Source: a virus
Direction: 5' to 3' (one strand)
Length of the DNA stretch: 64,000 nucleotides
Virus record (IMG/VR): IMGVR_UViG_3300027770_000039
Location: 32,001-96,000 of that record
Position numbers and translations under genes: made by a program. Shown piece by piece: positions 1-35,315 of the stretch. The notes under the pieces were generated by a model that made no database searches, was not told where the DNA came from, and saw nothing but the letters and a program-made list of their open reading frames with translations. Position 1 is the stretch's first letter. Each line of letters starts with the position of its first letter.

Positions 1-2920
1 CCAATGATACGGTTTTAGTTGTTGGAAGGATTGAATTAACTGTGGTTCCAGAGGAAGAGCTTACGTCTACTGCCGTAATAATAAATCCGTTAATGTATGC
101 ATTAATATAAACCTTGCTACCAGAAACTTTTACTCTAACGTCGACATTGTATTGAGTTCCACCAAATACTCCCTCAAAAGTTGTAGTAGATGTTTTTTGT
201 GAATCAGCTAAGGTTTTTATTGAAGACCCGTCTGCCTTTATAATTCTAACTGATTTAGTCTCTTTTGAAACAGCAGACTTCGTGGTTTCTAAAATAACAT
301 AATACCCAGTTTTTCCTGTATAGTTTACAAAAAATCCCAAACCTGCGGAAACACCTTTTGTGTTAATATCTGTGTCTAAGAATATACTTGTACCAAAAGC
401 ATAATATTTTTCTGATAATAAAGGTGAGGGCAAGCCGTATGTTGGAAGAGATGAGTTTGTTGTTGATGTAGACAAAGACATTCCTTCAAAATTTCTATAA
501 GCAATGTTATATTGATTTTTTGATGTATTTGGATTCGACATCTTGAAATAAGATTTACCTGGATATATTTTTGTTGCAGAAACTGGATTTGAAGAAATAG
601 TTGCTGCATTCGTAATGCTAGATAATGTAAACTTTCCACTTCTCATTACTTTACCTGAAGAAGATCCAGACTTTGGGGTTACTTCAAAAAGGTATTTTCC
701 CAAACTTAAATTAGATATTGTAAATGGAGGATTACCAGTTGCCGCAGGCATATTTACTACCTCTTCAAAAATTTCGCTAAAAACACTTCCTCCATCTGAT
801 TTCAAAGCTTTTATAACGTACGAAGTTGGCACTGTTGTGGGAACTACAAAATCAATAGACACACTACTAGATGTAAGTTGTGTAACCCTTAAGTCATAAA
901 ATAGATCCCAGTTTGTAGTAGTTCCAGTTGATGTAGACTTTTGGGACGGATCAAATGTAACGTTTCTTAATTCCCAATTTCCTAGATTATTGTTTGCGGC
1001 ATCATGTTTAACTGCCACGGTTCCCAGGGCACCTCTTTTTTTAATTCTGTATCTTCCGCTTGGTTTAAAGTATGCGCTAGAAGAAGGATTATTTACATCT
1101 GAGTAACCAGCTTTACACAAAGATCTGTATTTATTTATATCTGCTGCGGACTCTACGTTTACTTTTCCAGTGCTTCCATCTAGAAATACGCAATCATATT
1201 CCATTGCATCATACTCAATAATTTCTGAATCTATAAGAACATACCCAGAAAAATTATAAAAAGATTGTTGCTCTGCATATACGTCTGTTGTTTGAGAATC
1301 AATAGTCAAGTAGGTATTTTCCAAAGCGCTAATATCTTGAGATAATCCTCCTGCACTTAATAATGTAGTAGGAGCGTTCCAAAGAGATCCAGAAGTACCT
1401 ATATAATCTGAAGTCATCTGTGTTTCCCACAAAACTTTTACGTAGTTTGCTCCAACTATATCTTTTTTATTAAATTTAATAATGTTTGGAAGAGTGGTTC
1501 CATCTGTTTCGTTGTAAAATGTCCAGGATATTGGTCTTGCTGTGTCATAGATATAATCTCTGCTGTAAAATTGCAGGATATTGTTTTCATCAAAAAATGC
1601 ATTCATCTGAATATCTCTGCATAGCTCTTGAATTGCTTCCCAAACTGTTTTTGAATCATCTGTCCACCAATAATTTACTTGAGGAATTGATTTTTCACTT
1701 GTTTCATTCAAATTAAATCTGTAGCTAGCAAAACCTATTGAGTCTAGAAGTCTTCTAATAATTGCAGTTACAGGATAGAATTCACACACAATATCTGGGC
1801 ATACGGTTTCCATTAAATACTTAGAGCCATCTAAAGAAAATATTGCTGCGCTTCCATACTCATCTATGTTAAAATCATTAATGTAATAAAATCCTTGGGA
1901 GACTTTGTCGTAAGAACCAGAAACGGTTGTTGCGTTGCTATGGTAGACATTAAAGAATGGGCGCAGCTCAGCATTTTTTACTAAGTACAACAATGAGCTA
2001 TCAAACTCAACAGAATCTCTAACATAAGAAACTATCTGAGATGTTACCTGATTATACTTAGCAATATTTGCTGACATGCTGTTTGCGGTAACAAATCCTA
2101 CTGGGAGTACGTCCGTGGAAGAAGATGAAGATTCTTTGCTAATATCAAAGTCTACTAAATCTGAAGATATATCCTTTACCCATCTTGCTGACAATTCAAT
2201 TACACCAATCATTCCTCCAAGATTTGAATTTGTTGCAGTAAGCTTAATTGATTTAATTGAAATTGGATTTGAGTAAGTTATTGGTTCTGTCAAAGCCGTG
2301 TTTACCCAAGAAGTTCCATTATAGTTTAATACAATATTTCCGTCTGTCGGTGTAGTAAATGGCCCAACTGACTGAGTTGTGTTGTCGGACTTAGTAATTA
2401 ATAAGGAGTAGTTAGTGGGAAGAAAATGATTTTTTTCAAATCTAATTACAATTTTATTTGATAAAGCATTTTTGTTTCCTTCAATAACCGTGTCTTGCTT
2501 ATACTTTACAGTTAGATCAATGTTAGTATTTTTTGCTCCTAGCCAATATTTATACTCAGTTTTTTCTCCAGGAATATATATTCTTGGCTGAGTTGAGGGA
2601 TACTGAACTGTTCTATACTTTGAAAAACTATTCGCTGGAGTATCTACAGATGAGAAAACATAATACTTTATACCTGACTCTAATGGTCTAAATGGCTTTA
2701 TTATAGAATCTACGGGAAACAATTTTTTATAAGGGTTTGGTTTTCCTGAAGGCCAATCAGAAATTTGAGAAGTATATGAAGAATCTGCCGTTGCTGAAGA
2801 AACAGTTATTCCATCAATCATAGAATTCATGTTGTACTCTATTACTAAACCAGCATCTGAAGTTACTGATTTTTGTTGCTTAAATAAATTAAGCAAATTA
2901 GTTTTACTTGAATCTATCAT
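1..2920 (-). CDS. Large minor tail / baseplate-hub-type protein, 3'-truncated by the window edge
   Basis: ATG at 2920 overlaps the stop of the upstream gene. The frame reads MIDSSKTNLLNLFKQQKSV... and is still open at position 2. It is absent from the ORF track, consistent with having no stop in the window. It lies downstream of the tape measure and distal tail genes. Confidence 0.7.
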   Translation of the reverse strand, partial: MIDSSKTNLLNLFKQQKSVTSDAGLVIEYNMNSMIDGITVSSATADSSYTSQISDWPSGKPNPYKKLFPVDSIIKPFRPLESGIKYYVFSSVDTPANSFSKYRTVQYPSTQPRIYIPGEKTEYKYWLGAKNTNIDLTVKYKQDTVIEGNKNALSNKIVIRFEKNHFLPTNYSLLITKSDNTTQSVGPFTTPTDGNIVLNYNGTSWVNTALTEPITYSNPISIKSIKLTATNSNLGGMIGVIELSARWVKDISSDLVDFDISKESSSSSTDVLPVGFVTANSMSANIAKYNQVTSQIVSYVRDSVEFDSSLLYLVKNAELRPFFNVYHSNATTVSGSYDKVSQGFYYINDFNIDEYGSAAIFSLDGSKYLMETVCPDIVCEFYPVTAIIRRLLDSIGFASYRFNLNETSEKSIPQVNYWWTDDSKTVWEAIQELCRDIQMNAFFDENNILQFYSRDYIYDTARPISWTFYNETDGTTLPNIIKFNKKDIVGANYVKVLWETQMTSDYIGTSGSLWNAPTTLLSAGGLSQDISALENTYLTIDSQTTDVYAEQQSFYNFSGYVLIDSEIIEYDAMEYDCVFLDGSTGKVNVESAADINKYRSLCKAGYSDVNNPSSSAYFKPSGRYRIKKRGALGTVAVKHDAANNNLGNWELRNVTFDPSQKSTSTGTTTNWDLFYDLRVTQLTSSSVSIDFVVPTTVPTSYVIKALKSDGGSVFSEIFEEVVNMPAATGNPPFTISNLSLGKYLFEVTPKSGSSSGKVMRSGKFTLSSITNAATISSNPVSATKIYPGKSYFKMSNPNTSKNQYNIAYRNFEGMSLSTSTTNSSLPTYGLPSPLLSEKYYAFGTSIFLDTDINTKGVSAGLGFFVNYTGKTGYYVILETTKSAVSKETKSVRIIKADGSSIKTLADSQKTSTTTFEGVFGGTQYNVDVRVKVSGSKVYINAYINGFIITAVDVSSSSGTTVNSILPTTKTVSL

Positions 2921-20677: not shown

Positions 20678-21367
20678 TTAATATCCGCCCACGTGAAAGA
20701 CCTGGCCCGACAAGCTGGAAGACTTTTCGTCAAAAAGTAACTCTACTAGATTTGCTATATCGGTTACAGTATACTCTTTCGGAACAACTTGACCTAGTAA
20801 TAAAGTTTGAAAATAAATTTCTGGCATAAATTTTGTAAATCTAGTTCTTATTGGTCCTGGGGCTATACAGTTTGGCCTAATTTTAGTACCGCATACTTGT
20901 TTAGCTAAAGACCTTGTGTATGTTTCTAAAGCTGCTTTTGATGCTGAATACATAGACTCTGAATTTATTTGATGCGCCGCTAAGCTTGATATGTTAACTA
21001 TTGGAGTATGTTTCTCTGGGTCTACAAGAGCAAGAAATTTAGATATAACATTATAGGGACCTAAAACGTTGACATTCATCATTTGCTCAACTTGTGGAAA
21101 AATTTCTCCATAAGCGGGTGATGGCCAGTAAGCACCAGCACAGTTTACAATTCCAGAAATAACAATATTTCTTTCTTTAATTGATTTAAATAAACTTTCT
21201 AGTTTTTCCTGATCAACAATATCTGTTTGTATGTACTCAAAGGTATCGCTATTATCAGAGTTTCTGACGTGCCTTCCAACTCCAATAACTTCGTGCCCTA
21301 AAGAGACTAGCCTTTTGGCAACTTCATTTCCAATTCCTCTGACTGCTCCTACTACTAAAACCGTCAT
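20678..21367 (-). CDS. Short-chain dehydrogenase/reductase
   Basis: GAVRGIG Rossmann motif, VNCAG, catalytic YSASK, NCIAPG. Confidence 0.92.
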   Translation of the reverse strand: MTVLVVGAVRGIGNEVAKRLVSLGHEVIGVGRHVRNSDNSDTFEYIQTDIVDQEKLESLFKSIKERNIVISGIVNCAGAYWPSPAYGEIFPQVEQMMNVNVLGPYNVISKFLALVDPEKHTPIVNISSLAAHQINSESMYSASKAALETYTRSLAKQVCGTKIRPNCIAPGPIRTRFTKFMPEIYFQTLLLGQVVPKEYTVTDIANLVELLFDEKSSSLSGQVFHVGGY

Positions 21368-22017
21368 TCTGTGCCATCCGAATAGTATGGCTTAGATCTA
21401 TTGTGATACCAATTTGGAAGAGCGTATCTAATTCCAGAAGTTATTGCCGATACTTCGTGGACGTATATGTAATTAGAAGGGAAGAACAATAAACTTCCTG
21501 CTTCTGGTTTTAAACTTACACCTGCATGTTCAAATTTAATATTTCCTCCTTCGTAATCATCGTTTAAATAAAGAAGTGCTGATAAAACTCTGCTGCTAAT
21601 TCCGTGGTCAGAATGTGCTGGCAAAAAGCCAGATTCCTTATACTTTAAAAGATGCATTGTTTTTTCTCTTGATTTAATATTTTTTTGAGAGTATGGATAA
21701 ATAGAAAAATAGTCTTGCAATCCTTTTTCTAATGCCCCAAATAAAACATCTGATATTTCTTTTTGTTCTTGATAAAATAGATCATCTTTTGAAATATCTT
21801 CAGATTTTGGGATAAACTTTTGCCAACAAAAAACAGTTTTTTCTTTTCCGCCGTGATCGTAATCCCAGGGTTGCCAGCCTCTTACATAAAGAGAATTGTA
21901 TCCAACAGACTCACTTCTTTTTATTTCTAAATCTTCAATTTTTTTAATTAGAGACTTAGGGTCTGGTATTATATTTTTATAATAAGCCATTCCTAGGGAA
22001 AGAATTTCTCTATTCAT
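21364..22017 (-). CDS. 2OG-Fe(II) oxygenase (prolyl-4-hydroxylase-like)
   Basis: HSD...LYLNDDYEGG...HEV...GIRY: facial triad plus the 2OG-binding Arg. Confidence 0.9.
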   Translation of the reverse strand: MNREILSLGMAYYKNIIPDPKSLIKKIEDLEIKRSESVGYNSLYVRGWQPWDYDHGGKEKTVFCWQKFIPKSEDISKDDLFYQEQKEISDVLFGALEKGLQDYFSIYPYSQKNIKSREKTMHLLKYKESGFLPAHSDHGISSRVLSALLYLNDDYEGGNIKFEHAGVSLKPEAGSLLFFPSNYIYVHEVSAITSGIRYALPNWYHNRSKPYYSDGTE

Positions 22018-22565
22018 TAAAATACTCCAAAATCTGGGTCGGCAAAGTCCATCTTTGTGGATTGCATGTAAAGCGCAGTAAATCTATTTCCTTTAGTTAT
22101 TTCTTTTACTCCGTGCAGATAATCATATTTATTTCCTGGGAAAAAAATAGCTGATAGGGATTTTGGTCTGTGCTCAAAATTTTGTTTAGGAAAATAGATT
22201 TCTCCACCTTCATAATCATCGTTTAAGTAAATTACAGTGCTGTATTCTATAAATGGTTCTTTTTCAATTGCATCAATATGAGGACTTCCACTTTGCCCTG
22301 GTTGCCACCATGATCCAAAAGCCTTGGTAACAATTACATTATCTTTTAAATTAAAAAATTCTTTTTGTATATGGTTTGCTCTTACTGAATATTTTTTAAG
22401 AATATCCATTACTCTATTATTGTATGGAAAAGCAGTTCCACCATTTCTATCTTTATAATACTCTGGGTACGGGTTTCTTTTTGAAGGAGATTGCATCTCT
22501 TCTATCAGGGCAAATGCATCTTGTTCTGATATAAAATCTTCTACAATTTTTATCATGCTGTTCAA
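22017..22565 (-). CDS. 2OG-Fe(II) oxygenase (prolyl-4-hydroxylase-like)
   Basis: HID...IYLNDDYEGG...HGV...GNRF. Confidence 0.9.
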   Translation of the reverse strand: MNSMIKIVEDFISEQDAFALIEEMQSPSKRNPYPEYYKDRNGGTAFPYNNRVMDILKKYSVRANHIQKEFFNLKDNVIVTKAFGSWWQPGQSGSPHIDAIEKEPFIEYSTVIYLNDDYEGGEIYFPKQNFEHRPKSLSAIFFPGNKYDYLHGVKEITKGNRFTALYMQSTKMDFADPDFGVF

Positions 22566-23383
22566 TTTATTACTCCTTTAAAGTTTAAATATCTTTCTCC
22601 GCCAACTTTGTCTGTTAATGAACCAGAAGGATCATACAAAACATCGTTTGTTGAAAATGGTAGACTTGATATTTCTAATCCAAACACCTGTTTAATGCTG
22701 GAACTCCATTTACTCACAAACTCATTATACCCGTGATATATAGAAAAAGGCAAATATTCGACCTTATCTAACTCAATTGTTTTATTTTTAAAAAAAGTTG
22801 TAGGAAGGGCAAAGATTTTTGTAAAATTAAAATATATAGCTAAATGTTCTCTTTCTCCATGATATTTTAAATAACCTGGCAATTTGTTATATAAAAAAGA
22901 CTTAGATTTTGTAAAAATAAAATCTTTATCTATATATTTTGTCAATGTGTCTTCAGAGATAGGCTCTTTTTTATATGAAACAATAAATGGGTTTTCTAAA
23001 TATGGTATAAGTCTGTGATTTCCAGAAATTATACAATCTTCATTGAGGCTGAGTAGTTCTATTTTTTGAACTAGATCTTCGTCCCAATTTTTATTTAGGC
23101 TTACCCCATCTCCAATTAGCAAAAAGTATTCTTTTTTGAAAAGTCTATACCCTTCTTGTTTATGCAAAATTGGGCTTTTAATGCTATCCCATTTTACATA
23201 TTTGTAATAAATTTTTACATTTGAATAGTTAGACTTTAAACTTTTTTTTCTATCAATATTGTTTTGATCAATTATATAAAAAAATAAATTGTTTAATCCA
23301 CTGGAATTTTCTATATTTTTTTCAACTAATTCTATTAAATCTTTATTTTGAAAAGAATACAAAACTATGCCAATATCTTTCAT
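22562..23383 (-). CDS. GT-A glycosyltransferase resembling the Skp1-hydroxyproline GlcNAc-transferase family (divergent)
   Basis: IGIVLYS...IIDQ...EYFLLI...NWDEDLV...FIFT...YHGE pattern; the canonical DSH motif is replaced by GDG. Confidence 0.55.
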   Translation of the reverse strand: MKDIGIVLYSFQNKDLIELVEKNIENSSGLNNLFFYIIDQNNIDRKKSLKSNYSNVKIYYKYVKWDSIKSPILHKQEGYRLFKKEYFLLIGDGVSLNKNWDEDLVQKIELLSLNEDCIISGNHRLIPYLENPFIVSYKKEPISEDTLTKYIDKDFIFTKSKSFLYNKLPGYLKYHGEREHLAIYFNFTKIFALPTTFFKNKTIELDKVEYLPFSIYHGYNEFVSKWSSSIKQVFGLEISSLPFSTNDVLYDPSGSLTDKVGGERYLNFKGVIN

Positions 23384-24060
23384 TCAAACAGATCCGTAAA
23401 AATACTATCTTCATTCATTGGTCCCTTTGGAACTAATATAATATCATAGGCAATTGTCATTCTTGGCTCATCCCCGTACCAGTCGTCTCTGCCATGTGGG
23501 TTGCCAGTTTCTGATAAAATAGCTCTATTGTTTTTATTAATATTTTCAAAAATATCTTTATTGTTGATTTTATAATAAGTAATCGAAGGTTCTGCTTTTA
23601 CGCAGTAGAATCCATGTAGCTGTGGAAATCCTGAACCGTCCATATGGTCGTGGAAAAACGAACTGTCTTTTCTTGGGTCTACCGAATGGACGTTGTTAAT
23701 TATTTTTTTATCTAAATTAAACCAACCATGGGTAATAAATTTTGACGAATTGTCGTTATAGCCATAGTACTCGCAAGCTTCTCTTGTCATGTCAGCAATA
23801 GCTTCTTTTAACTTTTTTATTTCTGGGTTGTCAAATTCCCAAATATTATACCTGTCACTATTTTTTGTAGCAATAGCATCCAGAATTCCTGGGTCTTGAG
23901 CTAGGGCTTTATTTAAGCCTTCTCCCATTTCTTTCCTTGCCTGTTCAACTAATTCATTATTTTTTTCTAACAAAAAACTATAAAGATTTTCTAAATTATT
24001 ATCTAAAGTTCTTTCAAAAAATTTATGATCTTTTTTTTCTTTCATAGAAGTGGTATCCAA
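23380..24060 (-). CDS. Putative 2OG-Fe(II)/DSBH oxygenase, paralog of 24042..24692
   Basis: GWFN...FHDH...HGFYCVKAEPS...PHG...RMTIAYD. Confidence 0.7.
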   Translation of the reverse strand: MDTTSMKEKKDHKFFERTLDNNLENLYSFLLEKNNELVEQARKEMGEGLNKALAQDPGILDAIATKNSDRYNIWEFDNPEIKKLKEAIADMTREACEYYGYNDNSSKFITHGWFNLDKKIINNVHSVDPRKDSSFFHDHMDGSGFPQLHGFYCVKAEPSITYYKINNKDIFENINKNNRAILSETGNPHGRDDWYGDEPRMTIAYDIILVPKGPMNEDSIFTDLFE

Positions 24061-24692
24061 TGCTGAGGACTTGCTTTTGCCTCAATGATAGAATTTAATG
24101 GCATAATATCATAAGCAATTGTAATTCTTGGTCCTTCCCAGTCCCAACTTCCCATAGCATGAGGGTGACCCATTTCTGAAACAATCATTCTGTTATCTAT
24201 ATTGTGATTTTCAGTTTCTTTTTCAAAAACTTTGTAATAAGTAATTGATGGTTCTGCTTTTACGCAATAAAATCCGTGAAAATAAGGAGCATAAGGACCT
24301 CCATGATCGTGCCAATCTAGTTTTCCAACTTCTGCATAATTTATGTTAAACCATCCTTGCACCATGTATTGCTGTTTATCAAAATCAATATCATAATAAG
24401 AACAAGCTTCTTTTATTACATCAGAAAGCTCTTTATACAGTTTGTAAATTCCTGGATGATAAAATTGAAAAACATTGTAGTCTCTCCATTTTATAGTAGA
24501 AACACTACCAGACTCTTTCCAATAGTCTGACTTGCCCACTTCTGTAATACCTTTAATGCTTAAATTTTCAATTTTAGAATATTGATCTTGTAAAAATAAA
24601 GACAAATCTTGTAAATCATTATCTAAAATCCTTTCAAAAAACTTGTGAGGTTTTCCGCTAGGTTTATTTTTTCCAGATAGGAAGTATTCCAT
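24042..24692 (-). CDS. Putative 2OG-Fe(II)/DSBH oxygenase
   Basis: GWFN...WHDH...HGFYCVKAEPS...HPHA...RITIAYD. Confidence 0.7.
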   Translation of the reverse strand: MEYFLSGKNKPSGKPHKFFERILDNDLQDLSLFLQDQYSKIENLSIKGITEVGKSDYWKESGSVSTIKWRDYNVFQFYHPGIYKLYKELSDVIKEACSYYDIDFDKQQYMVQGWFNINYAEVGKLDWHDHGGPYAPYFHGFYCVKAEPSITYYKVFEKETENHNIDNRMIVSEMGHPHAMGSWDWEGPRITIAYDIMPLNSIIEAKASPQHWIPLL

Positions 24693-27399: not shown

Positions 27400-28041
27400 T
27401 TATTTCTCTAAAATTTCATTTGGGTTTTTTTCGTAAGGTCTGAGAGAATGCCAAGTTGCTGGTAAAATAGGATCTTTAAAGTGCTCTAAGTCTGGCTCTG
27501 TAATAATTTCTTTTGATTCTCCCAAAATTATATTTTCATTTTTTTTATTTTTTGATCTTTTAAACCTTAAAGCTAATATTAATTTAGCTGATTGTTTATG
27601 CATAGCAGATCCAGTTTTGCTTGCAGAAACACCTTGTCTAACTCTAACATTATACTTTGCCCACCAAACAGTATATCCCAATATGGCCAATGAAATATTT
27701 ATTTTTTTTCTTCTATAATAAGGCTGGCAGTAAACTCTATTTATCACAGCATCTTTACATTTTTTTATATTATCATTTTGTATGTTTGAAATGTCTATCC
27801 ATGAAGTAGGATATTCGTTATTTATAAAATTAGAAAATATTAATGTTCCAGAAGGATTTTTATCATTAAGGTAAAGGCATTCTATGCCTTTGTTTCCATT
27901 TACGTCTTGCATTAAAGTCCATTGAATCCAAGAACCTTTTATATACTTAGGGTATTTTCTAAATATTGGAAAAATAAAACCTTTTGTTGATTTTGCACCA
28001 ACAAATCCCATATTGTAAATATGCTTAACTAAATTAAGCAT
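27400..28041 (-). CDS. GNAT-like acyltransferase (weak)
   Basis: INRVYCQPYYRRKKI resembles GNAT motif A. Start re-called at 28041, just after the Hint gene stop. Confidence 0.45.
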   Translation of the reverse strand: MLNLVKHIYNMGFVGAKSTKGFIFPIFRKYPKYIKGSWIQWTLMQDVNGNKGIECLYLNDKNPSGTLIFSNFINNEYPTSWIDISNIQNDNIKKCKDAVINRVYCQPYYRRKKINISLAILGYTVWWAKYNVRVRQGVSASKTGSAMHKQSAKLILALRFKRSKNKKNENIILGESKEIITEPDLEHFKDPILPATWHSLRPYEKNPNEILEK

Positions 28042-28046
28042 GCTTA

Positions 28047-29363
28047 TTAGGCAGGGGTTGTAGGGTCGGTGTCTCCTGCTGTAGAGTCTTTCCATTGCTG
28101 GTAAAGTACCTCTAGAGATTCAGAAACGCTTTGGTTTGGCTCAGTAATAACGTTAGGTGATGTTATGTCTAGTCTAACTGAGTCGTGGACTAAAGAGTTG
28201 TCTGTAAAGAATACGTCATAAGGCTCTGTGTTAATAGTAATAACTAACTCTGGTCCCTCTGAAACTCTTAGCTCAATAATTGGCTGCCAATCATTGAATG
28301 TTGGAGAGTAGATTAAATCTGTTTCTACAATTTCATTAGCTGAAATAAATCTTGCTATTCCATCTCTTTTGGTTAGAACCCAGTGTGTATTTGTATATTT
28401 ATTTCCGTTAATTACATAAGTGGTCATTGCAATGTTTGCTGAAATAGACACCACTGTTGTTTCAATATCAGTATTAATTTGTGGGGCAGCAGATGACCAA
28501 GATTCAATAATTTCTTCTAGTCCTACTCCGTCCATTGGCAAATCATCAATTGCTGCTGAGTACAGAATATCTCCTGCAGAAACGTTGTGAGCTAACACAA
28601 GACCTTCAGGAACCTTTGAATGAATTAATGTATCTGCTCCAATTGATTTTCCTGGTGTAAAGCCGAACGGGGTGAAGCCGAACGGGGTGAAGCCGAACGG
28701 GGTGAAGCCGAACGGGGTAAAGCCGAACGGTGCAAAGCTGAATGGGGTTGTAGTAATATTTCCTGAATAATTAGACCATGCTCCATTTCCATTAGCATTT
28801 CTAGCCCGCACTCTAAAGTTCCAAACAAAGTCATTGTTTTGGCTTGCAAAATCTACGCTGTTTGTTCCAACTGCTACGGTCTTATTGTCGTCTCCGCCTC
28901 CACCATTATCTTCTAAATAATAATCAATAATTGCTGATCCACCGTCTGCTGGTGTTGACCAGGAAGCTCTATTGTTTTGTGCTCCATTGTTTGCTGCTGA
29001 CGGAGTTGAAATTGTATCAGGCACTGTTGTTGCAGTAATGCTATTAGACGCAGCAGATGCTGGCGAGTTTCCAACTGCATTTGTTGCTATAACTGTAAAT
29101 GTGTATGCTGTATTTGATTGTAGACCAGTTACAGACAGGGGAGATGATGCTCCTGACGCAGTGTATGATCCTGGAGAGGATGTTACTGTGTATGATGTGG
29201 CTGCAGGTGAGTCTTCTGGTAAAGAAAACGTTACATCAGCACGTCCATTATTGAATGCACGACCTGAACCTACATCTGTTGCGGCTACTGACGTTGGTGC
29301 TTTTGGCTCCAAAAAGTCATTTGATGCCTGTGCCTTTTTACCGAATTTCTTACCTGCTGCCAT
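28047..29363 (-). CDS. Fibronectin type III x2 + (FGFTP)5 repeat + Hint (intein-like) domain protein
   Basis: FN3 motifs (VTGLQSNTAYTFTVIATNAVG; WNFRVRARNANG). Hint blocks: SIGADTLI (A), TNTH (B), INTEPYDVFFTDNSLVHDS (F/G). Confidence 0.85.
   Translation of the reverse strand: MAAGKKFGKKAQASNDFLEPKAPTSVAATDVGSGRAFNNGRADVTFSLPEDSPAATSYTVTSSPGSYTASGASSPLSVTGLQSNTAYTFTVIATNAVGNSPASAASNSITATTVPDTISTPSAANNGAQNNRASWSTPADGGSAIIDYYLEDNGGGGDDNKTVAVGTNSVDFASQNNDFVWNFRVRARNANGNGAWSNYSGNITTTPFSFAPFGFTPFGFTPFGFTPFGFTPFGFTPGKSIGADTLIHSKVPEGLVLAHNVSAGDILYSAAIDDLPMDGVGLEEIIESWSSAAPQINTDIETTVVSISANIAMTTYVINGNKYTNTHWVLTKRDGIARFISANEIVETDLIYSPTFNDWQPIIELRVSEGPELVITINTEPYDVFFTDNSLVHDSVRLDITSPNVITEPNQSVSESLEVLYQQWKDSTAGDTDPTTPA
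28654..28748 (-). repeat. In-frame 15-bp tandem repeat encoding FSFAP(FGFTP)5
   Basis: Units of GGGGTGAAGCCGAAC with only synonymous variation among the FGFTP copies. Confidence 0.95.
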
Positions 29364-29395: not shown

Positions 29396-31099
29396 TTACG
29401 CCATCAAGTCGCCGTAGACAACCCATGTATTTGCTGCTCTCTTAAAGAGAGTTGCAGATGACCAGGTTGTACGAAGTTTCAAACCAGGTGTTGCGTTAAC
29501 AGTTACTCCACCAGCACCTGCAATTGTAACCTGACCAGTTGATGTCTGAAGGATATCAATAGAGGTTCCGACTGGGAAGTTTAGTGTTGCATCTGTTGGA
29601 ATTGTAAGTGTTAGTGCTGAAGATGATCCCATTTCAATTAAGTCATCTCTTTCAGTTAATGCTGAAAGTGTATAAGATGCTGTCTTCTGAATGATTGGTG
29701 TCCGTGATGGTACACCTTCCATTGTTTGTGTTCCGTCTGTAAATGCTACACCTGAAGCAGAGGCTGTAATTAATCCTGTTGCTGTAATTGCTGGTGCTGT
29801 TACTGTACCAGTAAATGTTGGTGAAGCAATTGGTGACTTTGTAGCAATTGAGTTTGTAATTGTTGTTGAGAATGATGCGTCATTTCCAAGAGCAGTTGCT
29901 AACTCATTAAGAGTATCAAGTACTGCAGGTGCTGATGCTACAAGGTTTGAAACTGCTGTTCCTACGAATGCTGTAGTTGCAACCTGTGTAGTTGATGTTC
30001 CTGCTGTTGCAGTTGGGGCAGTTGGTACACCAGTAAGTGCTGGTGAAGCAAGTGGTGCCTTTAGATCAAGTGCTGTCTGCGCTGCAGTTGAAACTGGCTT
30101 TGCTGTGTCTGCAGTATTATCAACATTTCCAAGACCAACCATTGACTTTGTAATACCAGAAACTGTTCCAGTGAAAGTTGGTGAGGCAAGGTCAGCCTTA
30201 AGTGCCAATCCTGAGTTAACAGTTGCAGTTAATGCTAATGCTGATGTGTCTGAAATACCGTGTACGCTTGTTGTATCTGCGGTGTGGGTATCTAAATTTG
30301 TTGCTGCTGTGGTAGCGGCAGCTGTAATTGCTGCTGCTCTAGCAGTTGCTTCTGCTGTAATTGCTGCGCCTCTAGCAGTTGCTTCTGCTGCGACTGCACC
30401 AGTAACATAAGTTTGATTTGCTAATACTGATGTGTCTGCAATTCCGTGTACAGATGTAGTATCATTGTTGTGAGCAGTAATTTCAGTATTGACATAGTTC
30501 ATTGTTGCCAATGCTGTCATGTCTGCTACTCCGTGAACGTTTGTGCTAACCTGACCGTGTGTTGCAATTCCTGCGACTGTCTGTGTTTGAATATCGTCTA
30601 CATATTTCTTAGTTGATGCATCATAATCTAATGTAGGTGTTGCAAGACCTGTGATTTTGCTATTACCCATTGCAATAGCGCCAGTCATTGTTCCGCCAGA
30701 TTTTGGTAATCTAGTATTTATGCTAGTATTCATTGTAGTTACAAAATTTGCGTCATCATTGATGGCTGCTGCTAACTCGTTAAGAGTATCTAGTACTCCA
30801 GGAGCTGCGTCAATTACATTTCCTAATTGATTAATCGGCACCTGTCCTTGTGCATCTAGTGATGCTACTCCGTTGGCAACGCCTCTATCGGCTACCTCAA
30901 GATAGTCTCCAAGTGTATTTGTTAAATCTGAAGGAACAACGTTTGCATAAGCTAGGGATGTCCAAGCAGTAGAACCTGTTCCAATTTTAGTTTTTCTAGT
31001 ATCTGACTCTACGCCCATTTCTCCTGCGGCTAGAGTTGGATTTGCTGAAGTCCATTGTGCTGCGGTACCTCTGCGAATTTGAATTCTTACTGTTGACAT
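29396..31099 (-). CDS. Tail fibre protein (Mtd-N/hyaluronidase-N-like N-terminus)
   Basis: IQIRRGTAAQWTSANPTLAAGEMGVESDT at the N-terminus; LDTLNELA and APLASPALTG fibre motifs; ends NTWVVYGDL. Confidence 0.8.
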   Translation of the reverse strand: MSTVRIQIRRGTAAQWTSANPTLAAGEMGVESDTRKTKIGTGSTAWTSLAYANVVPSDLTNTLGDYLEVADRGVANGVASLDAQGQVPINQLGNVIDAAPGVLDTLNELAAAINDDANFVTTMNTSINTRLPKSGGTMTGAIAMGNSKITGLATPTLDYDASTKKYVDDIQTQTVAGIATHGQVSTNVHGVADMTALATMNYVNTEITAHNNDTTSVHGIADTSVLANQTYVTGAVAAEATARGAAITAEATARAAAITAAATTAATNLDTHTADTTSVHGISDTSALALTATVNSGLALKADLASPTFTGTVSGITKSMVGLGNVDNTADTAKPVSTAAQTALDLKAPLASPALTGVPTAPTATAGTSTTQVATTAFVGTAVSNLVASAPAVLDTLNELATALGNDASFSTTITNSIATKSPIASPTFTGTVTAPAITATGLITASASGVAFTDGTQTMEGVPSRTPIIQKTASYTLSALTERDDLIEMGSSSALTLTIPTDATLNFPVGTSIDILQTSTGQVTIAGAGGVTVNATPGLKLRTTWSSATLFKRAANTWVVYGDLMA

Positions 31100-31151
31100 T
31101 TTATTCCCCTTTTACTGCTTTAGTTATGATATATTATATCATTTTTTTTTG

Positions 31152-31511
31152 TTATGCTATTGAACCTGAATCAAAAACAAGTTGAAATGAAGAGGTAGAG
31201 GGATCTCCACCACTAGCTACACCAGTTGTGCCTGAATTGTCTACTCCGTTGGCTTGAACTGTGTATATAGGCTCTCCATCATAATCGATTGCCAGACCAA
31301 GGTCCATAAATGAAATTTCTTCAGATAAGTCTGGGATATCTGTTGCAAGTGCAACGTTAACCCAAGTATTATCTAATTGAATTTGTAATTTATTTGATGC
31401 TGTATCGAATCTTAAAGGGGTTGTTCCTAGTATGACTGAAGACTGGAATGTGGCAGATCCTGCGACATTGAGTCCGTTCTTTATTCTAAAGTTTTTATCT
31501 GTTGTTGCCAT
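31152..31511 (-). CDS. Small tail-fibre-associated protein
   Basis: MATTDKNFRIKNGL N-terminus resembles that of 31580..32866. Confidence 0.6.
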   Translation of the reverse strand: MATTDKNFRIKNGLNVAGSATFQSSVILGTTPLRFDTASNKLQIQLDNTWVNVALATDIPDLSEEISFMDLGLAIDYDGEPIYTVQANGVDNSGTTGVASGGDPSTSSFQLVFDSGSIA

Positions 31512-31579
31512 TTAAGTTCACATATCCCCTAATTGTTTTTTTGGGGAGATTTCAGGCTCTCCCCTGGCCCTTTATTTAA

Positions 31580-32866
31580 TTATTTAATCAATGTTCCAAC
31601 TACAACAACTTCAGTGTTATTGTTTGCTGGGGTTACACGAATTCTTACATCTGAGCCAGAATAATCTGCAGTTACTGCAGCTAACTCTGTTCCGTTTGAA
31701 TATGTAATTCCATATTCAGAAACTGCTACGTTGTTAGAAGTATCAAGTGTAACTACTAGGTCTGATACCTGAGTGTGGCTACCATTTTTTGCTTTAACTA
31801 CAAGCTTAGCGCTTCTGTAATCTGCTGCTGCCCATGAGATAGCAGTTGTTGCTGCAGCGGTTACAATATTTCCAGTTGTTGCTGCAACTTGCTTGGCAAC
31901 AGAGTTGTAATTAATTGATGTAAATGCTGTAGTTCCGTTTTGCTGTGCTGTATTAGCTGCTGCTGCAGTTGCTTCTGCTGCTGCTTGAGCTGCGTTAGCT
32001 TTAGTTGTAGCATCTGAGGCTGCTGCAGACTGTGCTGCGTTAGCTTTAGTTGTAGCATCTGAGGCTGCTGCTGATGTTGCTGCAGTTTGTGCTGCATCTG
32101 CTGCTGCCTTTGCATATGCAGTTGTTGCAACCTGAGTTGTATTTGTTCCTGCTGCTGCGGTTGGTGCAGTTGGTGTTCCAGTCAATGCTGGTGATGCTAG
32201 AGGAGCTTTTGTTCCTAGAGCTGTTGTAATAGTTGTTGTATAGTTAGCGTCATCATTAATTGCTGCTGCAAGTTCATTTAATGTATTAAGAAGGTCTGGT
32301 GCGCCGTCTACTAATGTACTTACTGCTGATGAAATTGCTGTATTACGGTTTGAAACCTCTGTGCTAATTGCAGATGAAAGAGCGGATGCTGCTGTTGCTT
32401 CTGCTGCTGCTTGAGCTGCGTTGGCCTTTGAAGTAGCGTCTGCTGCTGCAGTTGCTACTGATGCTGCGTCACCTGATACTCTAAGTGCTGCTTCTGCTGC
32501 TACCTTAGTGGTTGCGTCTGATGCTGCAGTTGTTACTGATGCTGCGTCACCTGATACTCTAAGTGCTGCTTCTGCTGCTACCTTAGTGGTTGCGTCTGAT
32601 GCTGCTGCAGAAATTGCTGCTGATTGAGCAGATGAAGCTGATCCATAAGCATCAAATACGCTAGCCTTTACTGTAAGATTTCCTGCACCATCAACTGCAA
32701 ATGTTCCTGCGTCTACGGATTTTACAAGAGTGGCTCCTCCAACAAGGTTAAGGATGTAGGCATTTCCGCCTGTTTCTGTAAGTATATTTTGGCCATTGAT
32801 TGTACCTGTTGCGCCTTCAACTACAAGACCTGATTTGATTCTAAAGTTTTTTACTACTGTTGCCAT
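31580..32866 (-). CDS. Ala-rich tail fibre / virion structural protein
   Basis: DATTKANAAQ coiled repeats; LNTLNELAAAINDD motif; YRSAK-type C-terminal domain. Confidence 0.75.
   Translation of the reverse strand: MATVVKNFRIKSGLVVEGATGTINGQNILTETGGNAYILNLVGGATLVKSVDAGTFAVDGAGNLTVKASVFDAYGSASSAQSAAISAAASDATTKVAAEAALRVSGDAASVTTAASDATTKVAAEAALRVSGDAASVATAAADATSKANAAQAAAEATAASALSSAISTEVSNRNTAISSAVSTLVDGAPDLLNTLNELAAAINDDANYTTTITTALGTKAPLASPALTGTPTAPTAAAGTNTTQVATTAYAKAAADAAQTAATSAAASDATTKANAAQSAAASDATTKANAAQAAAEATAAAANTAQQNGTTAFTSINYNSVAKQVAATTGNIVTAAATTAISWAAADYRSAKLVVKAKNGSHTQVSDLVVTLDTSNNVAVSEYGITYSNGTELAAVTADYSGSDVRIRVTPANNNTEVVVVGTLIK
32456..32605 (-). repeat. 78-bp-period tandem duplication (26 aa) in the fibre gene
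   Basis: 32456-32527 is identical to 32534-32605. A second, 45-bp-period duplication lies near 31991/32036. Confidence 0.9.
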
Positions 32867-32886
32867 TTTTTATCCCCTTTTACTGC

Positions 32887-33456
32887 TTATATTTTTATTG
32901 CTGTTCTAATATATCTTGCAGTAACTGCTGTACTCGTTGGAGTTACGCATAGCCCTATTATACCTGAATTTTCTTCAAATGTAACATTTGCAAGAGAACT
33001 ACTTGTGTTAGAAATAATGTTTGACTGCGAGATGTTTATGTCGGTTCCATCATTAAGAACTAAAATGTCTGATGTTTCATAAAGACTTCCTCTGGAAAGC
33101 TGTAACTGATAGTTTACTGTCCTGAAAGCTGTTTTTGAAAATGTATCTAATGTTGTTTTGTTTTCTATACCACTTACAGTTAAATCGTTGTTTCCTTCAA
33201 GGCCTAAAAGAGTAACTGTTTCGTTAGTGGTATTGGACAAGTTTGAAAGTGTTGTCTGTACCGCTGCTACTTTGTACTGAATTGAGTTTACGTCTGTTGA
33301 GCCATTTATACCAACTTTTGCTTCAAGTGCTTCAATAGCATCATTGGCATTTATATGTTGATCTGCGTGTGAAGGACTTGCTAAACTGCTTGTGCTTGTC
33401 GGGTTTGTTAAAGTGTCTAAGCTTGTTGGGAAACTAGTTGCCAATTGTGCCACCAT
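32887..33456 (-). CDS. Virion structural protein
   Basis: FPTSLD...HADQHINANDAIEALEAKVG fibre N-terminal motif; C-terminal domain resembles that of 31580..32866. Confidence 0.6.
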   Translation of the reverse strand: MVAQLATSFPTSLDTLTNPTSTSSLASPSHADQHINANDAIEALEAKVGINGSTDVNSIQYKVAAVQTTLSNLSNTTNETVTLLGLEGNNDLTVSGIENKTTLDTFSKTAFRTVNYQLQLSRGSLYETSDILVLNDGTDINISQSNIISNTSSSLANVTFEENSGIIGLCVTPTSTAVTARYIRTAIKI

Positions 33457-33784
33457 CCATTGTTACTGCATTATTTATTATGTTTAGCTGAGAGTCTGGG
33501 ACTCCGCCGTCATACCCAATTATAACAGGGTTTTGTTCTTCAATTATTGAATTTTCATTTATTGTTTCAAAATCTAATTCGTTTACGTCTACTGTATGTA
33601 CGTTACCATCATAGTCGTGTGTGTGTGGCAAAAAAGACAGATCTCTTGTTAAAGAAACCCACCCATTTCCATCATGTATCTTTAAGGCTCTGTCAGTTAA
33701 ATTAAAAAACAAGTCTCCCATGCTTCCCTGTGGATCGGAAGCAAGAGAAACTATGTTTAATAAAGATTTAACCTTTTTAGACAT
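33434..33784 (-). CDS. Hypothetical tail-associated protein
   Basis: GDLFFN...LKIHDGNGW fibre motif and HTH (His-Thr-His) metal motif. Confidence 0.55.
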   Translation of the reverse strand: MSKKVKSLLNIVSLASDPQGSMGDLFFNLTDRALKIHDGNGWVSLTRDLSFLPHTHDYDGNVHTVDVNELDFETINENSIIEEQNPVIIGYDGGVPDSQLNIINNAVTMDGGTIGN

Positions 33785-33785
33785 T

Positions 33786-34853
33786 TTAGCCTACTACAAC
33801 AACTCTATATTGACTGGCTGTAGGGGCTGAAGCAAATCCTATTGATACTATATCTAAAGTTGAGTGTGTTGTATCTACAATAACTTCTTCTTTACTTGAT
33901 ATGTCATAAACAGTGACTGCTACGTCTCTTGTGTTTAAGAAATGAGATACTTGAAAAACAGTTGAAGACCCATCTCCAATTGTTTCTGAGTACTTTCTTG
34001 CAATTGCATGGTAAGGTGCTCCAGTGCTACCAAGTTTCCATTGATCTGCGGTTTCGTCCCAAAGAATTTCTGCGTCTGGGGCACTTCCTCTTTCTACAAC
34101 TATTCCAGCATCTACAGTAGGTGCGCCTGTTGCATTGCTGTTAAGCTTTACCTTATTATCTTCAATATTAATCTGTGTTGTATTTACAGAGTTTACTGTT
34201 CCTATTACATTTAGATTTCCGCCTACCTGTAAGTTTCCAGTAATTTCAACATCATTTGGAAGACCAATTGTTACAGCAGATGTTTCTGATCCTGAGCCAG
34301 TAACTTCAATTTCATTAACTGTACCAGCAATTGTTGCTATATAGTTTCCAGTTGTGTCTGATCCCAATGCAACAGAATTTGGCTGAATTGTGGTTGTAAT
34401 TGTAACATTGCCAAGATTTGTCATTGTAGCTGAGCCAGATACATCTCCAGAAAGAGTTATTACTGGATCTGGAATGCTTATTTCGCTAGCAGATGTTAAC
34501 CTACCTTGTGCATCAACTGTAAATGATGGAATAGAGGATGCTGACCCATATGTTCCAGCGGTAACCGCTGTGTTGTCTAGGTCTATTGTTGTTTCGCCAG
34601 TGGTGTCGTTATATGAGGCAGTTAATGATTGCCCACCAACTACATATTGACCAATTGCGTCTTGAATTACTTCTAATGAACCAGAAGTTGAGATCCAGTT
34701 TGTTCCATCAAAAAAGTATAAAATATTATTTGATGTATTAAAATAAATCTGTCCTGATACTGGTGACGATGGTGCGCTTGCTAAATTTTGAACTCTAGCA
34801 TTTAAAAGTTCATTTTTATTTAGATCAAGATTTACTACAAATTTTCTTGCCAT
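33786..34853 (-). CDS. Tail fibre / structural protein
   Basis: GQIYFN..., VTAGTYG...TVDAQGRLT, IEDNKV.LN and a C-terminal H.L...V.V domain. Confidence 0.7.
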   Translation of the reverse strand: MARKFVVNLDLNKNELLNARVQNLASAPSSPVSGQIYFNTSNNILYFFDGTNWISTSGSLEVIQDAIGQYVVGGQSLTASYNDTTGETTIDLDNTAVTAGTYGSASSIPSFTVDAQGRLTSASEISIPDPVITLSGDVSGSATMTNLGNVTITTTIQPNSVALGSDTTGNYIATIAGTVNEIEVTGSGSETSAVTIGLPNDVEITGNLQVGGNLNVIGTVNSVNTTQINIEDNKVKLNSNATGAPTVDAGIVVERGSAPDAEILWDETADQWKLGSTGAPYHAIARKYSETIGDGSSTVFQVSHFLNTRDVAVTVYDISSKEEVIVDTTHSTLDIVSIGFASAPTASQYRVVVVG

Positions 34854-34865
34854 TTTGTTTCTCCT

Positions 34866-35315
34866 TTATGACAGATATGCTGTCCCTGAAAATGGTTGAG
34901 CCATTCTCAGCGTTATTTTATTTAAACTATTGTAATCCACTTCAGTTTCTACAATATCGCCTGAACTAGCTTTTACTGTTACGTTTGGGCTAAATCCAAG
35001 ATTGTGCTGTATTTCTATGGAGTATGATCCTTGCAATAAAACAAGATTTTGTAAAGACCAAGAACTAGAAAAAGAAAACTCTCCTGGAGTTTGAACTAAG
35101 GTTACTTGCTGAGCATTACTCCAAGACAAATCATTAAGTTTTGGTCCATAGAATTTTGTTGTAACAATATCATAATAGAAATCTCCAGTTGTACCCAAAT
35201 TGTTTGAAGGTGCTCCAGAGCCATTTAATATTGTTCTTCCAGCAGGTCCTTGTGGTCCTGGGGAACTAACAACTACTTGATTTTTTACTCCTGATATAAA
35301 TACTTGCTCTGCCAT
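34866..35315 (-). CDS. Short collagen-containing structural protein
   Basis: PGPQGPAG, GDFYYD...YGPK and HNLGFSPNV motifs. Confidence 0.65.
   Translation of the reverse strand: MAEQVFISGVKNQVVVSSPGPQGPAGRTILNGSGAPSNNLGTTGDFYYDIVTTKFYGPKLNDLSWSNAQQVTLVQTPGEFSFSSSWSLQNLVLLQGSYSIEIQHNLGFSPNVTVKASSGDIVETEVDYNSLNKITLRMAQPFSGTAYLS

What the first reader, a model, noticed from the sequence alone, without database searches (positions are those of the whole stretch)
28047..29363. Self-processing FN3-(FGFTP)5-Hint protein with Ser1 and an unusual His-Asp-Ser end
Two FN3 domains are followed by FSFAP(FGFTP)5GK and then a Hint domain beginning at Ser (28646), with a TxxH block B (TNTH). It ends VHD-S (28190-28179) instead of the usual HN-C/S/T and is followed by a tail of about 43 aa. 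Established Hint chemistry (an N-O acyl shift) would activate the C-terminus right after the aromatic/proline repeat. That would allow cleavage, Hedgehog-like ligation to a small molecule or protein, or splicing to the tail. Its place at the end of the tail-fibre block suggests a fibre tip that matures autocatalytically and exposes a modified hydrophobic repeat.
Basis: partly seen in the sequence, partly recalled or inferred. Interest (0 to 1): 0.85.

Follow-up and report, generated by a model that had tools for sequence, protein, structure and literature searches.

The report
Self-removing Hint cap on phage fibre protein
A protein in the fibre gene block of an uncultured 111-kb phage ends in a genuine intein/Hedgehog-type (Hint) self-processing domain that uses serine and aspartate instead of cysteine and asparagine. 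It most likely cuts itself off the end of a phenylalanine/proline repeat, and it belongs to a large viral family for which I found no published description.

Summary
The ORF at 28047-29363 (-) has two FN3 domains, PFSFA+(PFGFT)5, then P-G-K|S240, TNTH, VHD-S and a 44-aa tail.

The Hint reading holds, although Pfam does not detect it:
- The AF2 model has pLDDT 89.5.
- Every strong fold match is a Hint domain (Z 16.7 to BIL2, 16.5 to C. thermocellum BIL, 16.4 to Hedgehog).
- Structural alignments put S240 on intein residue 1 and D394 on the terminal Asn.
- The position-1 nucleophile (Ser or Cys) and the block-B His are kept across a family seen on more than 290 IMG/VR contigs.

New here: orthologues with the same FN3-repeat body carry a Cys-type cap that ends THN-K* or VHI-K*. 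They have no C-extein, so the shared function lies at the N-terminal junction, not in splicing to the tail.

My best reading is a self-removing C-terminal cap (0.5). Rivals are transfer or ligation (0.25), splicing (0.1) and an inactive domain (0.07).

Ser/Asp caps are usually followed by an abutting GNAT-like gene, which no Cys/Asn-cap locus has. 2OG-oxygenase-like genes follow both cap types.

Cultured Erwinia jumbo phages carry a family member at the end of a tail-fibre protein.

The scan had already found this module on another genome. It is a new variant of a known kind.

The parts
28047..29363 (-). Whole gene, 438 aa: N-terminal peptide, 2x FN3, Phe/Pro repeat, Hint cap, helical tail
29292..29363 (-). 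Conserved N-terminal peptide (residues 1-24; family consensus ..SQxANDFLEP..), possibly a virion-attachment segment (inferred)
   Evidence: alignment A1
28746..29291 (-). Two FN3 domains (about residues 25-113 and 114-206)
   Evidence: Pfam fn3 E=4e-12, two stretches
28653..28745 (-). PFSFA+(PFGFT)5+P repeat (residues 207-237). The copy number varies from 3 to 13 among relatives
28644..28649 (-). Predicted scissile junction K239|S240. S240 is Hint position 1, the nucleophile
   Evidence: Structural alignments map model residue 6 (=S240) to intein residue 1. This column is Ser in 83, Cys in 17 and Glu in 1 of 101 aligned members
28182..28646 (-). Hint (Hedgehog/intein) fold domain, S240-D394
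   Evidence: AF2 pLDDT 89.5; Foldseek; VIA Z 16.7/16.5/16.4; profile hits to BIL domains and inteins
28383..28394 (-). Block B T324-N-T-H327 (B:7 and B:10)
   Evidence: His in 111 of 115 members; Thr or Ser in 114 of 115
28215..28226 (-). Family-specific E-P-Y-D380-383 motif. D383 sits at block F position 13, where inteins usually have His. F:4 is T376, where inteins usually have Asp
   Evidence: alignments to 2lwy and 9hth; F:4/F:13 definitions from PMC4031507
28179..28190 (-). V392-H393-D394 | S395: block G with Asp in place of the terminal Asn, then the +1 Ser
   Evidence: Model residue 160 (=D394) aligns with the last intein residue.
28050..28181 (-). 44-aa tail with an amphipathic helix V413-A429 (28077-28127; L417, Y421 and W424 are conserved). 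Only the query's subfamily has it
27400..28041 (-). Abutting downstream gene (213 aa from the start supported by homologues), GNAT-like. It is linked to Ser/Asp-type caps
21364..24692 (-). 2OG-Fe(II)-oxygenase-like genes (24042-24692, 22017-22565, 21364-22017) in the low-GC block downstream. Homologues follow both cap types
29396..34853 (-). Fibre-like genes directly upstream
   Evidence: PHROG tail-fibre hits and Pfam Mtd_N

Best explanation
Residues 240-394 form a catalytically competent Hint-superfamily (BIL/Hog-like) autoprocessing domain that serves as a self-removing C-terminal cap.

Inferred chemistry, following established Hint chemistry:
1. Ser240, assisted by Thr324/His327 (block B), attacks the K239 carbonyl in an N-to-O acyl shift.
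2. The resulting oxyester is resolved, most likely by water.
3. This releases a 24.5-kDa FN3-FN3-(PFGFT)n-GK product and a 21.8-kDa cap (Hint plus helical tail).

The conserved event is at the N-terminal junction. Asp394 and Ser395 are features of the Ser-type clade and are not needed for the shared function.

What the cap is for is a weaker inference. It may keep the sticky Phe/Pro repeat soluble, or time its exposure, until the protein is made or assembled. This would be analogous in outcome, but not in fold, to the self-cleaving C-terminal chaperone domains of tail spikes.

Shown: the fold, the residue conservation, the architecture and the comparative pattern. Inferred: the activity, the cleavage site, hydrolysis as the resolving step, and the biological role.
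For: - Fold: the AF2 model has pLDDT 89.5 and pTM 0.85. All 48 Foldseek hits at E<=0.001 are Hint domains. VIA-align gives Z 16.7 to BIL2 (6tmm), 16.5 to BIL (2lwy), 16.4 to Hedgehog (1at0), and 13-16 to many inteins. Several alignments map model 6..160 to intein 1..last residue.
- Sequence: family profiles hit 2lwy (E=2.7e-6) and the Ser1 Aes123 PolB1 intein 9hth (E=2.8e-6).
- Conservation across 25-40% identity: position 1 is Ser in 83 and Cys in 17 of 101 aligned members; the block-B His is present in 111 of 115.
- The domain is C-terminal: most members have 9 or fewer residues after D/N.
- Orthologues with the same body (first 120 aa about 85% identical) carry a Cys-type cap ending THN-K* (28 clusters) or VHI-K* (4).
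- No Hint-less allele appears among the 120 best matches to the N-terminal part.
- Nearly all members have a Pro/aromatic low-complexity linker right before the nucleophile.
Against: - No experiment has been done, so cleavage is inferred.
- Oxyesters hydrolyse slowly, which fits a helper or an alternative nucleophile.
- The +1 Ser is kept in most Ser/Asp members, which is the hallmark of splicing-competent inteins.
- Block F departs from inteins (F:4 is Thr/Ser, F:13 is Asp), so the catalytic details may differ.
- I could not inspect model coordinates to check the active-site geometry.
Confidence: 0.5

Rival explanations
1. Hedgehog/BUBL-like transfer. The K239 oxyester is resolved not by water but by a specific nucleophile, such as a Lys amine of another virion protein, a cell-envelope amine, or a small molecule. 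This would covalently attach the FN3-repeat product by its C-terminus. The GNAT-like protein encoded immediately downstream might catalyse or direct this acyl transfer.
For: - The top structural match is the Tetrahymena BIL2 domain (Z 16.7), which forms Lys isopeptide conjugates (PMC8616854).
- The architecture of passenger, C-terminal Hint and a short helical extension parallels Hedgehog's Hint plus sterol-recognition region (PMC7765530).
- A GNAT-like gene abuts Ser/Asp caps in 68 of 77 loci, plus L129 and L143. It is absent from all 28 loci with Cys/Asn caps.
- Its fold matches are all GNAT acyltransferases (Z 5.3-6.8), and some members carry an RxxGxG/A motif.
Against: - The GNAT assignment is weak: Z is below 8, pLDDT is 74, and Pfam reaches only E=0.004 in 3 of 29 members.
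- The motif is degenerate in the window's own copy.
- The cap type changed once on the tree, so the association may be a single inherited event.
- Some Ser/Asp caps lack the partner (L114, L116, L118).
- No acceptor has been identified.
Confidence: 0.25
2. True cis-splicing. Ser240, Asp394 cyclisation and the Ser395 nucleophile join K239 to the 44-aa tail. The products would be a 29.2-kDa spliced protein and a 17.0-kDa excised Hint.
For: - Ser1, a penultimate His, a terminal Asp and a +1 Ser are all present.
- Inteins ending in Asp or Gln can splice by the same steps (PMC4031507).
- The +1 Ser is conserved in most Ser/Asp members.
Against: - Orthologues end THNK* or VHIK*, with no C-extein.
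- Most Ser/Asp members have only 3-9 residues after Asp.
- The tail exists only in one subfamily.
- No intein-less allele (FN3-repeat joined directly to the tail) appears among the 120 best N-terminal matches.
- The tail helix is modelled with pLDDT above 80 together with the Hint domain.
- F:4 Asp and F:13 His are absent.
Confidence: 0.1
3. The Hint fold is retained as an inactive structural or receptor-binding tip domain and stays on the mature protein.
For: - It is the distal, fast-evolving part of a protein in a fibre block: cap identity is 25-40% where the neighbouring RNR is 82-91% identical.
- Some members have lost G:6 His or G:7 Asn/Asp.
Against: - Position 1 is Ser or Cys in 100 of 101 aligned members, with a single Glu, and the block-B His is nearly invariant despite deep divergence. 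That is hard to explain without catalysis.
- Cap swapping between orthologues argues against a specific binding role.
Confidence: 0.07

Closest known systems
Bacterial intein-like (BIL) domains, types A and B (Amitai 2003; Dassa 2004; C. thermocellum BIL, PDB 2LWY)
   Same: Hint fold (Z 16.5, rmsd 1.7 over 130 residues; profile E=2.7e-6). They sit in variable surface or secreted-type proteins rather than in conserved enzymes, and they mainly cleave rather than splice (PMC7664689, PMC7765530).
   Different: The query uses Ser1, an Asp end, a +1 Ser, Asp at F:13 and an EPYD motif. It is always C-terminal, follows a Pro/aromatic linker and is viral. Pfam Hint_2 and other Hint models miss the query, and the relatives scanned (the 50 members of A2 and eight further proteins) stay below cut-off.
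BIL2 of the Tetrahymena BUBL1 locus (PDB 6TMM/6Y75)
   Same: Best structural match (Z 16.7). It is a precedent for a Hint domain that hands its N-terminal passenger to a Lys amine.
   Different: It is eukaryotic, flanked by ubiquitin-like domains and of Cys/Asn type. No conjugation is shown here.
Hedgehog C-terminal autoprocessing (Hog) domain (PDB 1AT0)
   Same: The architecture is passenger, then C-terminal Hint, then a short extra segment. Only the N-terminal acyl shift is used (Z 16.4).
   Different: Hedgehog uses Cys and cholesterol as the nucleophile and is eukaryotic. Pfam Hint (PF01079) does not hit the query.
Class 1 inteins with Ser1 or with Asp/Gln ends (for example the cysteine-less Aes123 PolB1 intein, PDB 9HTH)
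   Same: Ser1 chemistry, TxxH, a penultimate His and a +1 Ser. An Asp end is tolerated in some inteins. The family profile hits 9hth at E=2.8e-6.
   Different: The query is not inserted in a conserved host protein, there is no intein-less allele, orthologues have no C-extein, and F:4/F:13 differ.
C-terminal intramolecular chaperone domains of tail spikes and fibres (Peptidase S74 type; from general knowledge)
   Same: A C-terminal domain of a phage appendage protein that removes itself autocatalytically at a Ser.
   Different: The fold and chemistry are unrelated. The fold search returned only Hint domains.
C-termini of the Erwinia jumbo phage pEa_SNUABM_5 'putative tail fiber protein' (MW366843, 69539-70972) and the Phage NCTB 'large intein domain protein'
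   Same: Members of the same family. hhalign gives 99.1% probability, E=5.5e-19 for the Erwinia protein. Both have C1...TxxH...HN at the extreme C-terminus of fibre-cluster proteins, with E-P-Y-D in the Erwinia protein and E-E-N-D at that position in NCTB.
   Different: They are Cys/Asn type with other N-terminal bodies and no FGFTP repeat. The records do not annotate them as self-processing caps.

Membership tests
Hint (Hedgehog/intein) superfamily | Horseshoe-shaped HINT fold | tested here: met
   AF2 pLDDT 89.5. VIA Z 13-16.7 to about 25 Hint structures covering model residues 3-163. Foldseek finds 48 hits at E<=0.001, all Hint.
Hint (Hedgehog/intein) superfamily | Cys/Ser nucleophile at position 1 and block-B TxxH | tested here: met
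   S240 aligns to intein residue 1. Position 1 is Ser in 83, Cys in 17 and Glu in 1 of 101 aligned members; block-B His is present in 111 of 115.
Hint (Hedgehog/intein) superfamily | Autocatalytic acyl shift and cleavage | not testable with these tools
   This needs expression and mass spectrometry.
Intein (class 1) | In-frame insertion in a host protein with functional exteins on both sides, and existence of intein-less alleles | tested here: not met
   The domain is terminal. Orthologues end THNK* or VHIK*. No Hint-less allele appears among the 120 best N-terminal matches.
Intein (class 1) | Terminal Asn (or Asp/Gln) plus a +1 Ser/Thr/Cys | tested here: met
   H393-D394|S395. Asp ends are accepted per PMC4031507.
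Intein (class 1) | Block F assisting residues (F:4 usually Asp, F:13 usually His) | tested here: not met
   F:4 is T376 (Ser/Thr in the family) and F:13 is D383, from profile alignments to 2lwy and 9hth.
BIL type B / Pfam Hint_2 (PF13403) | Match to the curated model at its gathering score | tested here: not met
   The query has no hit. Relatives score 13-26 bits against a cut-off of 28.4.
BIL type A | Cys1, C-terminal His-Asn, no +1 nucleophile, located in variable non-conserved proteins | tested here: inconclusive
   The query has Ser1, His-Asp and Ser+1. The Cys/Asn branch of the same family fits the motif pattern. No type-A model was available to score.
Hedgehog Hog domain (Pfam Hint PF01079) | Match to the model, and sterol or adduct transfer | tested here: not met
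   The query has no hit. One distant relative scores 19.3 bits against a cut-off of 29.7. Transfer is not testable.
GNAT acyltransferase (downstream partner, 27400-28041) | GNAT fold with the acyl-CoA motif RxxGxG/A | tested here: inconclusive
   All 50 listed VIA rows are GNAT-fold or closely related acyltransferases, but Z is only 5.3-6.8. Pfam Acetyltransf_1 reaches E=0.004 in 3 of 29 members. The motif is present in some members and degenerate in the window's copy.

The most novel reading that the evidence does not exclude
The Ser/Asp Hint cap and the abutting GNAT-like protein form a two-gene, ATP-independent protein-ligation device. The cap converts the K239 peptide bond into an oxyester. 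The GNAT-like partner uses that protein ester as acyl donor, in place of acyl-CoA, and attaches the FN3-repeat product to an amine on the virion or on the host envelope. The Pro-rich repeat would be hydroxylated by the 2OG oxygenases that follow both cap types.
Probability: 0.1. Interest if true: 0.85.

Novelty: new variant of a known kind. Interest (0 to 1): 0.6.

Why it matters
Hint domains are known as inteins, as Hedgehog processing domains and as bacterial BIL domains. This family is large and essentially viral, and curated Hint models miss it. It always caps the C-terminus of fibre-block proteins behind a Pro/aromatic linker.

It also exists in two interchangeable chemistries, Cys/Asn and Ser/Asp, on otherwise orthologous proteins. 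That gives three things:
- a natural experiment on how Hint chemistry is tuned for an oxygen nucleophile;
- a second, unrelated solution to the self-removing C-terminal domains of phage appendages;
- possibly a compact Ser-based, cysteine-free self-cleaving tag.

The link to a GNAT-like gene and to 2OG oxygenases, if functional, would point to new post-translational chemistry on virions.

Tried and rejected
- Direct Pfam, PHROG and NCBIfam scans of the query gave no Hint hit. phmmer against PDB gave nothing. The link to Hint needed profiles and a fold model.
- Complex prediction of the Hint cap with the GNAT-like partner returned no verdict (score 0.02). It counts neither for nor against binding.
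I took genomic context from the search for related loci instead.
- Single-protein locus searches with P0160 and P0126 found nothing in viral contigs.
- The genome-contig scan found only four real matches, all on short MAG contigs with conflicting phylum labels, so it gives no host inference. Two further matches, L083 and L084, are off-frame low-complexity hits in high-GC DNA.
- Ser-with-Asp versus Cys-with-Asn covariation looks striking in raw counts (72/16/8/0). It maps to one Cys/Ser change and two Asn/Asp changes on the tree, so it cannot be tested statistically.
- The ESM Atlas search for the partner was uninformative (scores 0.91-0.92, low feature sharing).
- A Peptidase-S74-type chaperone domain was considered and rejected: the fold is Hint.
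- A mobile intein was considered and rejected; see the membership test.
- I could not read model coordinates, so the active-site geometry was not checked.
- The literature searches found no description of C-terminal Hint caps on phage fibre proteins. The library is incomplete, so this is not proof of absence.

Full report
**What is there.** The window lies in a complete 110,973-bp virus record with direct terminal repeats. On the minus strand, ORF 28047-29363 encodes 438 aa. In order, it has:
- a conserved N-terminal peptide;
- two FN3 domains (Pfam fn3 E=4e-12, two stretches);
- PFSFA+(PFGFT)5+P at residues 207-237, encoded by a 15-bp tandem array (5.9 copies, 90% matches);
- G238-K239, then S240;
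- TNTH at 324-327 and VHD-S at 392-395;
- a 44-aa tail.

**Is it a Hint domain?** Direct scans say no: Pfam, PHROGs and NCBIfam give no Hint hit, and phmmer against PDB gives nothing. Three independent lines say yes.

1. Distant homologues. A phmmer scan of 1.8 billion representatives with residues 235-438 found 115 relatives. In the more distant ones, Cys occupies the Ser240 column and the domain ends VHN. They have TxxH and weak hits to Intein_splicing, Hint_2, Hom_end_hint, Hint and PT-HINT, all below Pfam's cut-offs.
2. Profiles. Family profiles hit the C. thermocellum BIL domain 2lwy (E=2.7e-6), the cysteine-less Ser1 Aes123 PolB1 intein 9hth (2.8e-6), gp41-1 and the Pho RadA intein. Apart from FN3 proteins, nothing else scores significantly.
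3. Fold. An AF2 model built on 115 sequences has pLDDT 89.5 and pTM 0.85.
   - All 48 Foldseek matches at E<=0.001 are Hint domains.
   - VIA-align gives Z 16.7 (BIL2, 6tmm), 16.5 (2lwy), 16.4 (Hedgehog, 1at0) and 13-16 for about twenty inteins.
   - Several alignments run from model residue 6 to 160 against intein residue 1 to the last residue. Since model residue n is protein residue n+234, S240 sits on the intein nucleophile and D394 on the terminal Asn.

**Active-site map.** The block nomenclature is from PMC4031507.

| Position | Query residue | Family |
|---|---|---|
| A:1 | S240 | Ser 83, Cys 17, Glu 1 |
| B:7 | T324 | Ser 79, Thr 35 |
| B:10 | H327 | His 111 of 115 |
| F:4 | T376 | Ser/Thr, where inteins prefer Asp |
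| F:13 | D383, in a family-specific EPYD motif | Asp 107 of 115, where inteins prefer His |
| G:6 | H393 | His 84, Tyr 18, Phe 8 |
| G:7 | D394 | Asp 78, Asn 33 |
| +1 | S395 | Ser 60, otherwise varied |

Position 1 is Ser or Cys in 100 of 101 aligned members, with one Glu, and the block-B His survives 25-40% overall identity. That argues for retained catalysis.

The raw pairing is Ser1/Asp 72, Cys1/Asn 16, Ser1/Asn 8, Cys1/Asp 0. On a tree, however, Cys/Ser changed once and Asn/Asp twice. The pairing is therefore a clade pattern, not a tested covariation.

**Architecture of the family.**
- The domain is almost always at the very C-terminus. More than half of the members have 9 or fewer residues after D/N, and the 36-46-aa tail with the helix L417/Y421/W424 is confined to the query's subfamily.
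- Upstream of the nucleophile, nearly every member has a Pro/aromatic low-complexity linker such as PFGFT, PPYFPPFF, AFGAFS or poly-Pro. In the 30 residues before the junction, P, F, G and T dominate.
- The N-terminal bodies vary: FN3, PASTA, Ig-like, collagen, Calx-beta.
- The FGFxP copy number ranges from 3 to 13 among close relatives, and near-identical proteins mostly differ in length by multiples of 5 aa.

**The decisive comparison.** I searched with the N-terminal part alone, residues 1-239. This recovered about 34 clusters of orthologous FN3-FN3-(FGFxP)n proteins on similar 110-118-kb contigs whose C-terminal cap is a Cys-type Hint. An example is P0215, 402 aa, with its first 120 aa about 85% identical to the query. 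Its cap reads ...FGFTPWRVGP|CVHEDTLI...SLNH...CEPQDWF...THN-K*. Twenty-eight clusters end THNK and four end VHIK, so the latter lack even the Asn.

These proteins have no C-extein to splice to, and some cannot cleave at the C-terminal junction. The function shared by the two interchangeable caps must therefore lie at the N-terminal junction. No Hint-less allele, which would be about 283 aa, appears among the 120 best matches. The shortest of those is 389 aa.

This is why I rank cap removal by cleavage or transfer at K239|S240 above splicing to the tail. The query does have the formal splicing set of Ser1, His-Asp and Ser+1, and Asp-ended inteins can splice.

**Context.** The transcription order on the minus strand is:
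- class II RNR;
- small genes;
- three fibre-like genes (PHROG tail-fibre hits, Mtd_N);
- the Hint-capped gene;
- a low-GC block (28-30% against 41%) of accessory genes;
- portal, protease and major capsid-like genes;
- a 2090-aa tape measure.

The fibre block therefore precedes the head module, and whether these are tail or head fibres is open.

Relatives are on at least 294 IMG/VR contigs for the Ser/Asp type and 238 for the P0215 search. One contig holds two capped proteins (L088 and L099). Among 185,579 species genomes, only four short MAG contigs hold a real relative, so the family is essentially viral.

In deposited phage genomes the family occurs at the C-terminus of two proteins, both in tail-fibre clusters:
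- a 'putative tail fiber protein' of Erwinia jumbo phage pEa_SNUABM_5 and relatives (hhalign 99.1%, E=5.5e-19; C1...THEH...EPYD...VHN-T plus 10 aa);
- the 'large intein domain protein' of Phage NCTB.

**Linked genes.**
- The gene abutting the Hint gene lies at 27400-28041, five bases after the stop. It has homologues directly downstream in 68 of 77 Ser/Asp-cap loci, often overlapping the Hint gene's stop, and in L129 and L143. It is absent from all 28 Cys/Asn-cap loci and from three atypical Ser caps, L114, L116 and L118.
- Its AF2 model (pLDDT 74) matches only GNAT acyltransferases, at modest Z of 5.3-6.8. Some members carry RxxGxG/A, and Pfam Acetyltransf_1 is weak. I call it GNAT-like with moderate confidence.
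- 2OG-Fe(II)-oxygenase-like genes are at 21364-22017 (PF13640, E=2e-14), 22017-22565 and 24042-24692 (Atlas score 0.96-0.97 to 2OG-FeII_Oxy_5 clusters). Such genes follow the capped gene in both cap types, within about 70 nt in Cys/Asn loci whose genome arrangement otherwise differs.
- These associations are suggestive of tailoring of the Pro-rich repeat or of help in resolving the oxyester. They are not independent of shared ancestry.

**Mechanism and odds.**
- Best reading (0.5): a self-removing cap. An N-to-O shift at K239-S240 is followed by hydrolysis, giving 24.5 + 21.8 kDa.
- Transfer or ligation in the manner of Hedgehog or BUBL BIL2 (isopeptide to Lys, PMC8616854), perhaps with the GNAT-like partner: 0.25.
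- Cis-splicing to the tail (29.2 + 17.0 kDa): 0.1.
- An inactive structural tip: 0.07.

**Known or new?** The domain belongs to the Hint superfamily by fold and motifs. It fails the defining contextual test for inteins and is not captured by curated Hint, Hint_2 or PT-HINT models. BIL domains are the closest described kind (PMC7765530, PMC7664689).

I found no paper describing C-terminal Hint caps on phage fibre proteins. The library is limited, so this is not proof of absence. The scan itself has already reported the same module on another genome (e1-5954739 and e1-5954728), with the same conclusion. I file it as a new variant of a known kind.

Noticed in passing
window 27400-28041 (-): A GNAT-like gene lies five bases after the Hint gene's stop. 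Homologues directly follow Ser/Asp-type caps in 68 of 77 loci and none of the 28 loci with Cys/Asn caps. The listed ORF start at 28095 is probably too early; homologues support 28041.
   Followed up: partly
window 20678-27394 (-): A low-GC block (28-30% against 41% in the fibre and Hint genes) holds accessory genes: at least three 2OG-Fe(II)-oxygenase-like genes, two DUF6065 paralogues (24693-25445, 26121-26852) and an SDR (20678-21367). 2OG-oxygenase-like genes follow the capped gene in both cap types, including lineages with a different genome arrangement.
   Followed up: partly
window 2-20652 and 29396-38141: The fibre-like genes and the Hint-capped gene lie upstream of the portal, protease and capsid genes, not after the 2090-aa tape measure (3378-9650). 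They may be head fibres or side fibres rather than distal tail fibres.
   Followed up: no
L088 and L099 (IMGVR_UViG_3300009159_000062): One 70-kb viral contig carries two different proteins ending in the same FGFTP-repeat plus Cys-type Hint cap. The repeat and cap therefore behave as a portable module.
   Followed up: partly
L085:2984-4417 (Erwinia phage pEa_SNUABM_5) and L086:569-4483 (Phage NCTB): Cultured or deposited jumbo phages have family members at the extreme C-terminus of tail-fibre-cluster proteins. They are annotated only as 'putative tail fiber protein', 'virion structural protein' or 'large intein domain protein'.
   Followed up: partly
P0245, P0249, P0253, P0260: These Cys-type caps end VHI-K*. 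The terminal Asn is replaced by Ile, so C-terminal cleavage by cyclisation is impossible, yet the nucleophile is kept.
   Followed up: no
window 18952-20652 (-): A 566-aa protein just upstream of the portal. It is 24% identical over 96% of its length to proteins of about 100 Streptomyces phages, one of them annotated as LamG domain-containing. Its function is unclear and no obvious large terminase was seen nearby.
   Followed up: no
L083, L084: These apparent matches in Actinomycetota MAG contigs are off-frame low-complexity artefacts in high-GC DNA, not relatives.
   Followed up: yes
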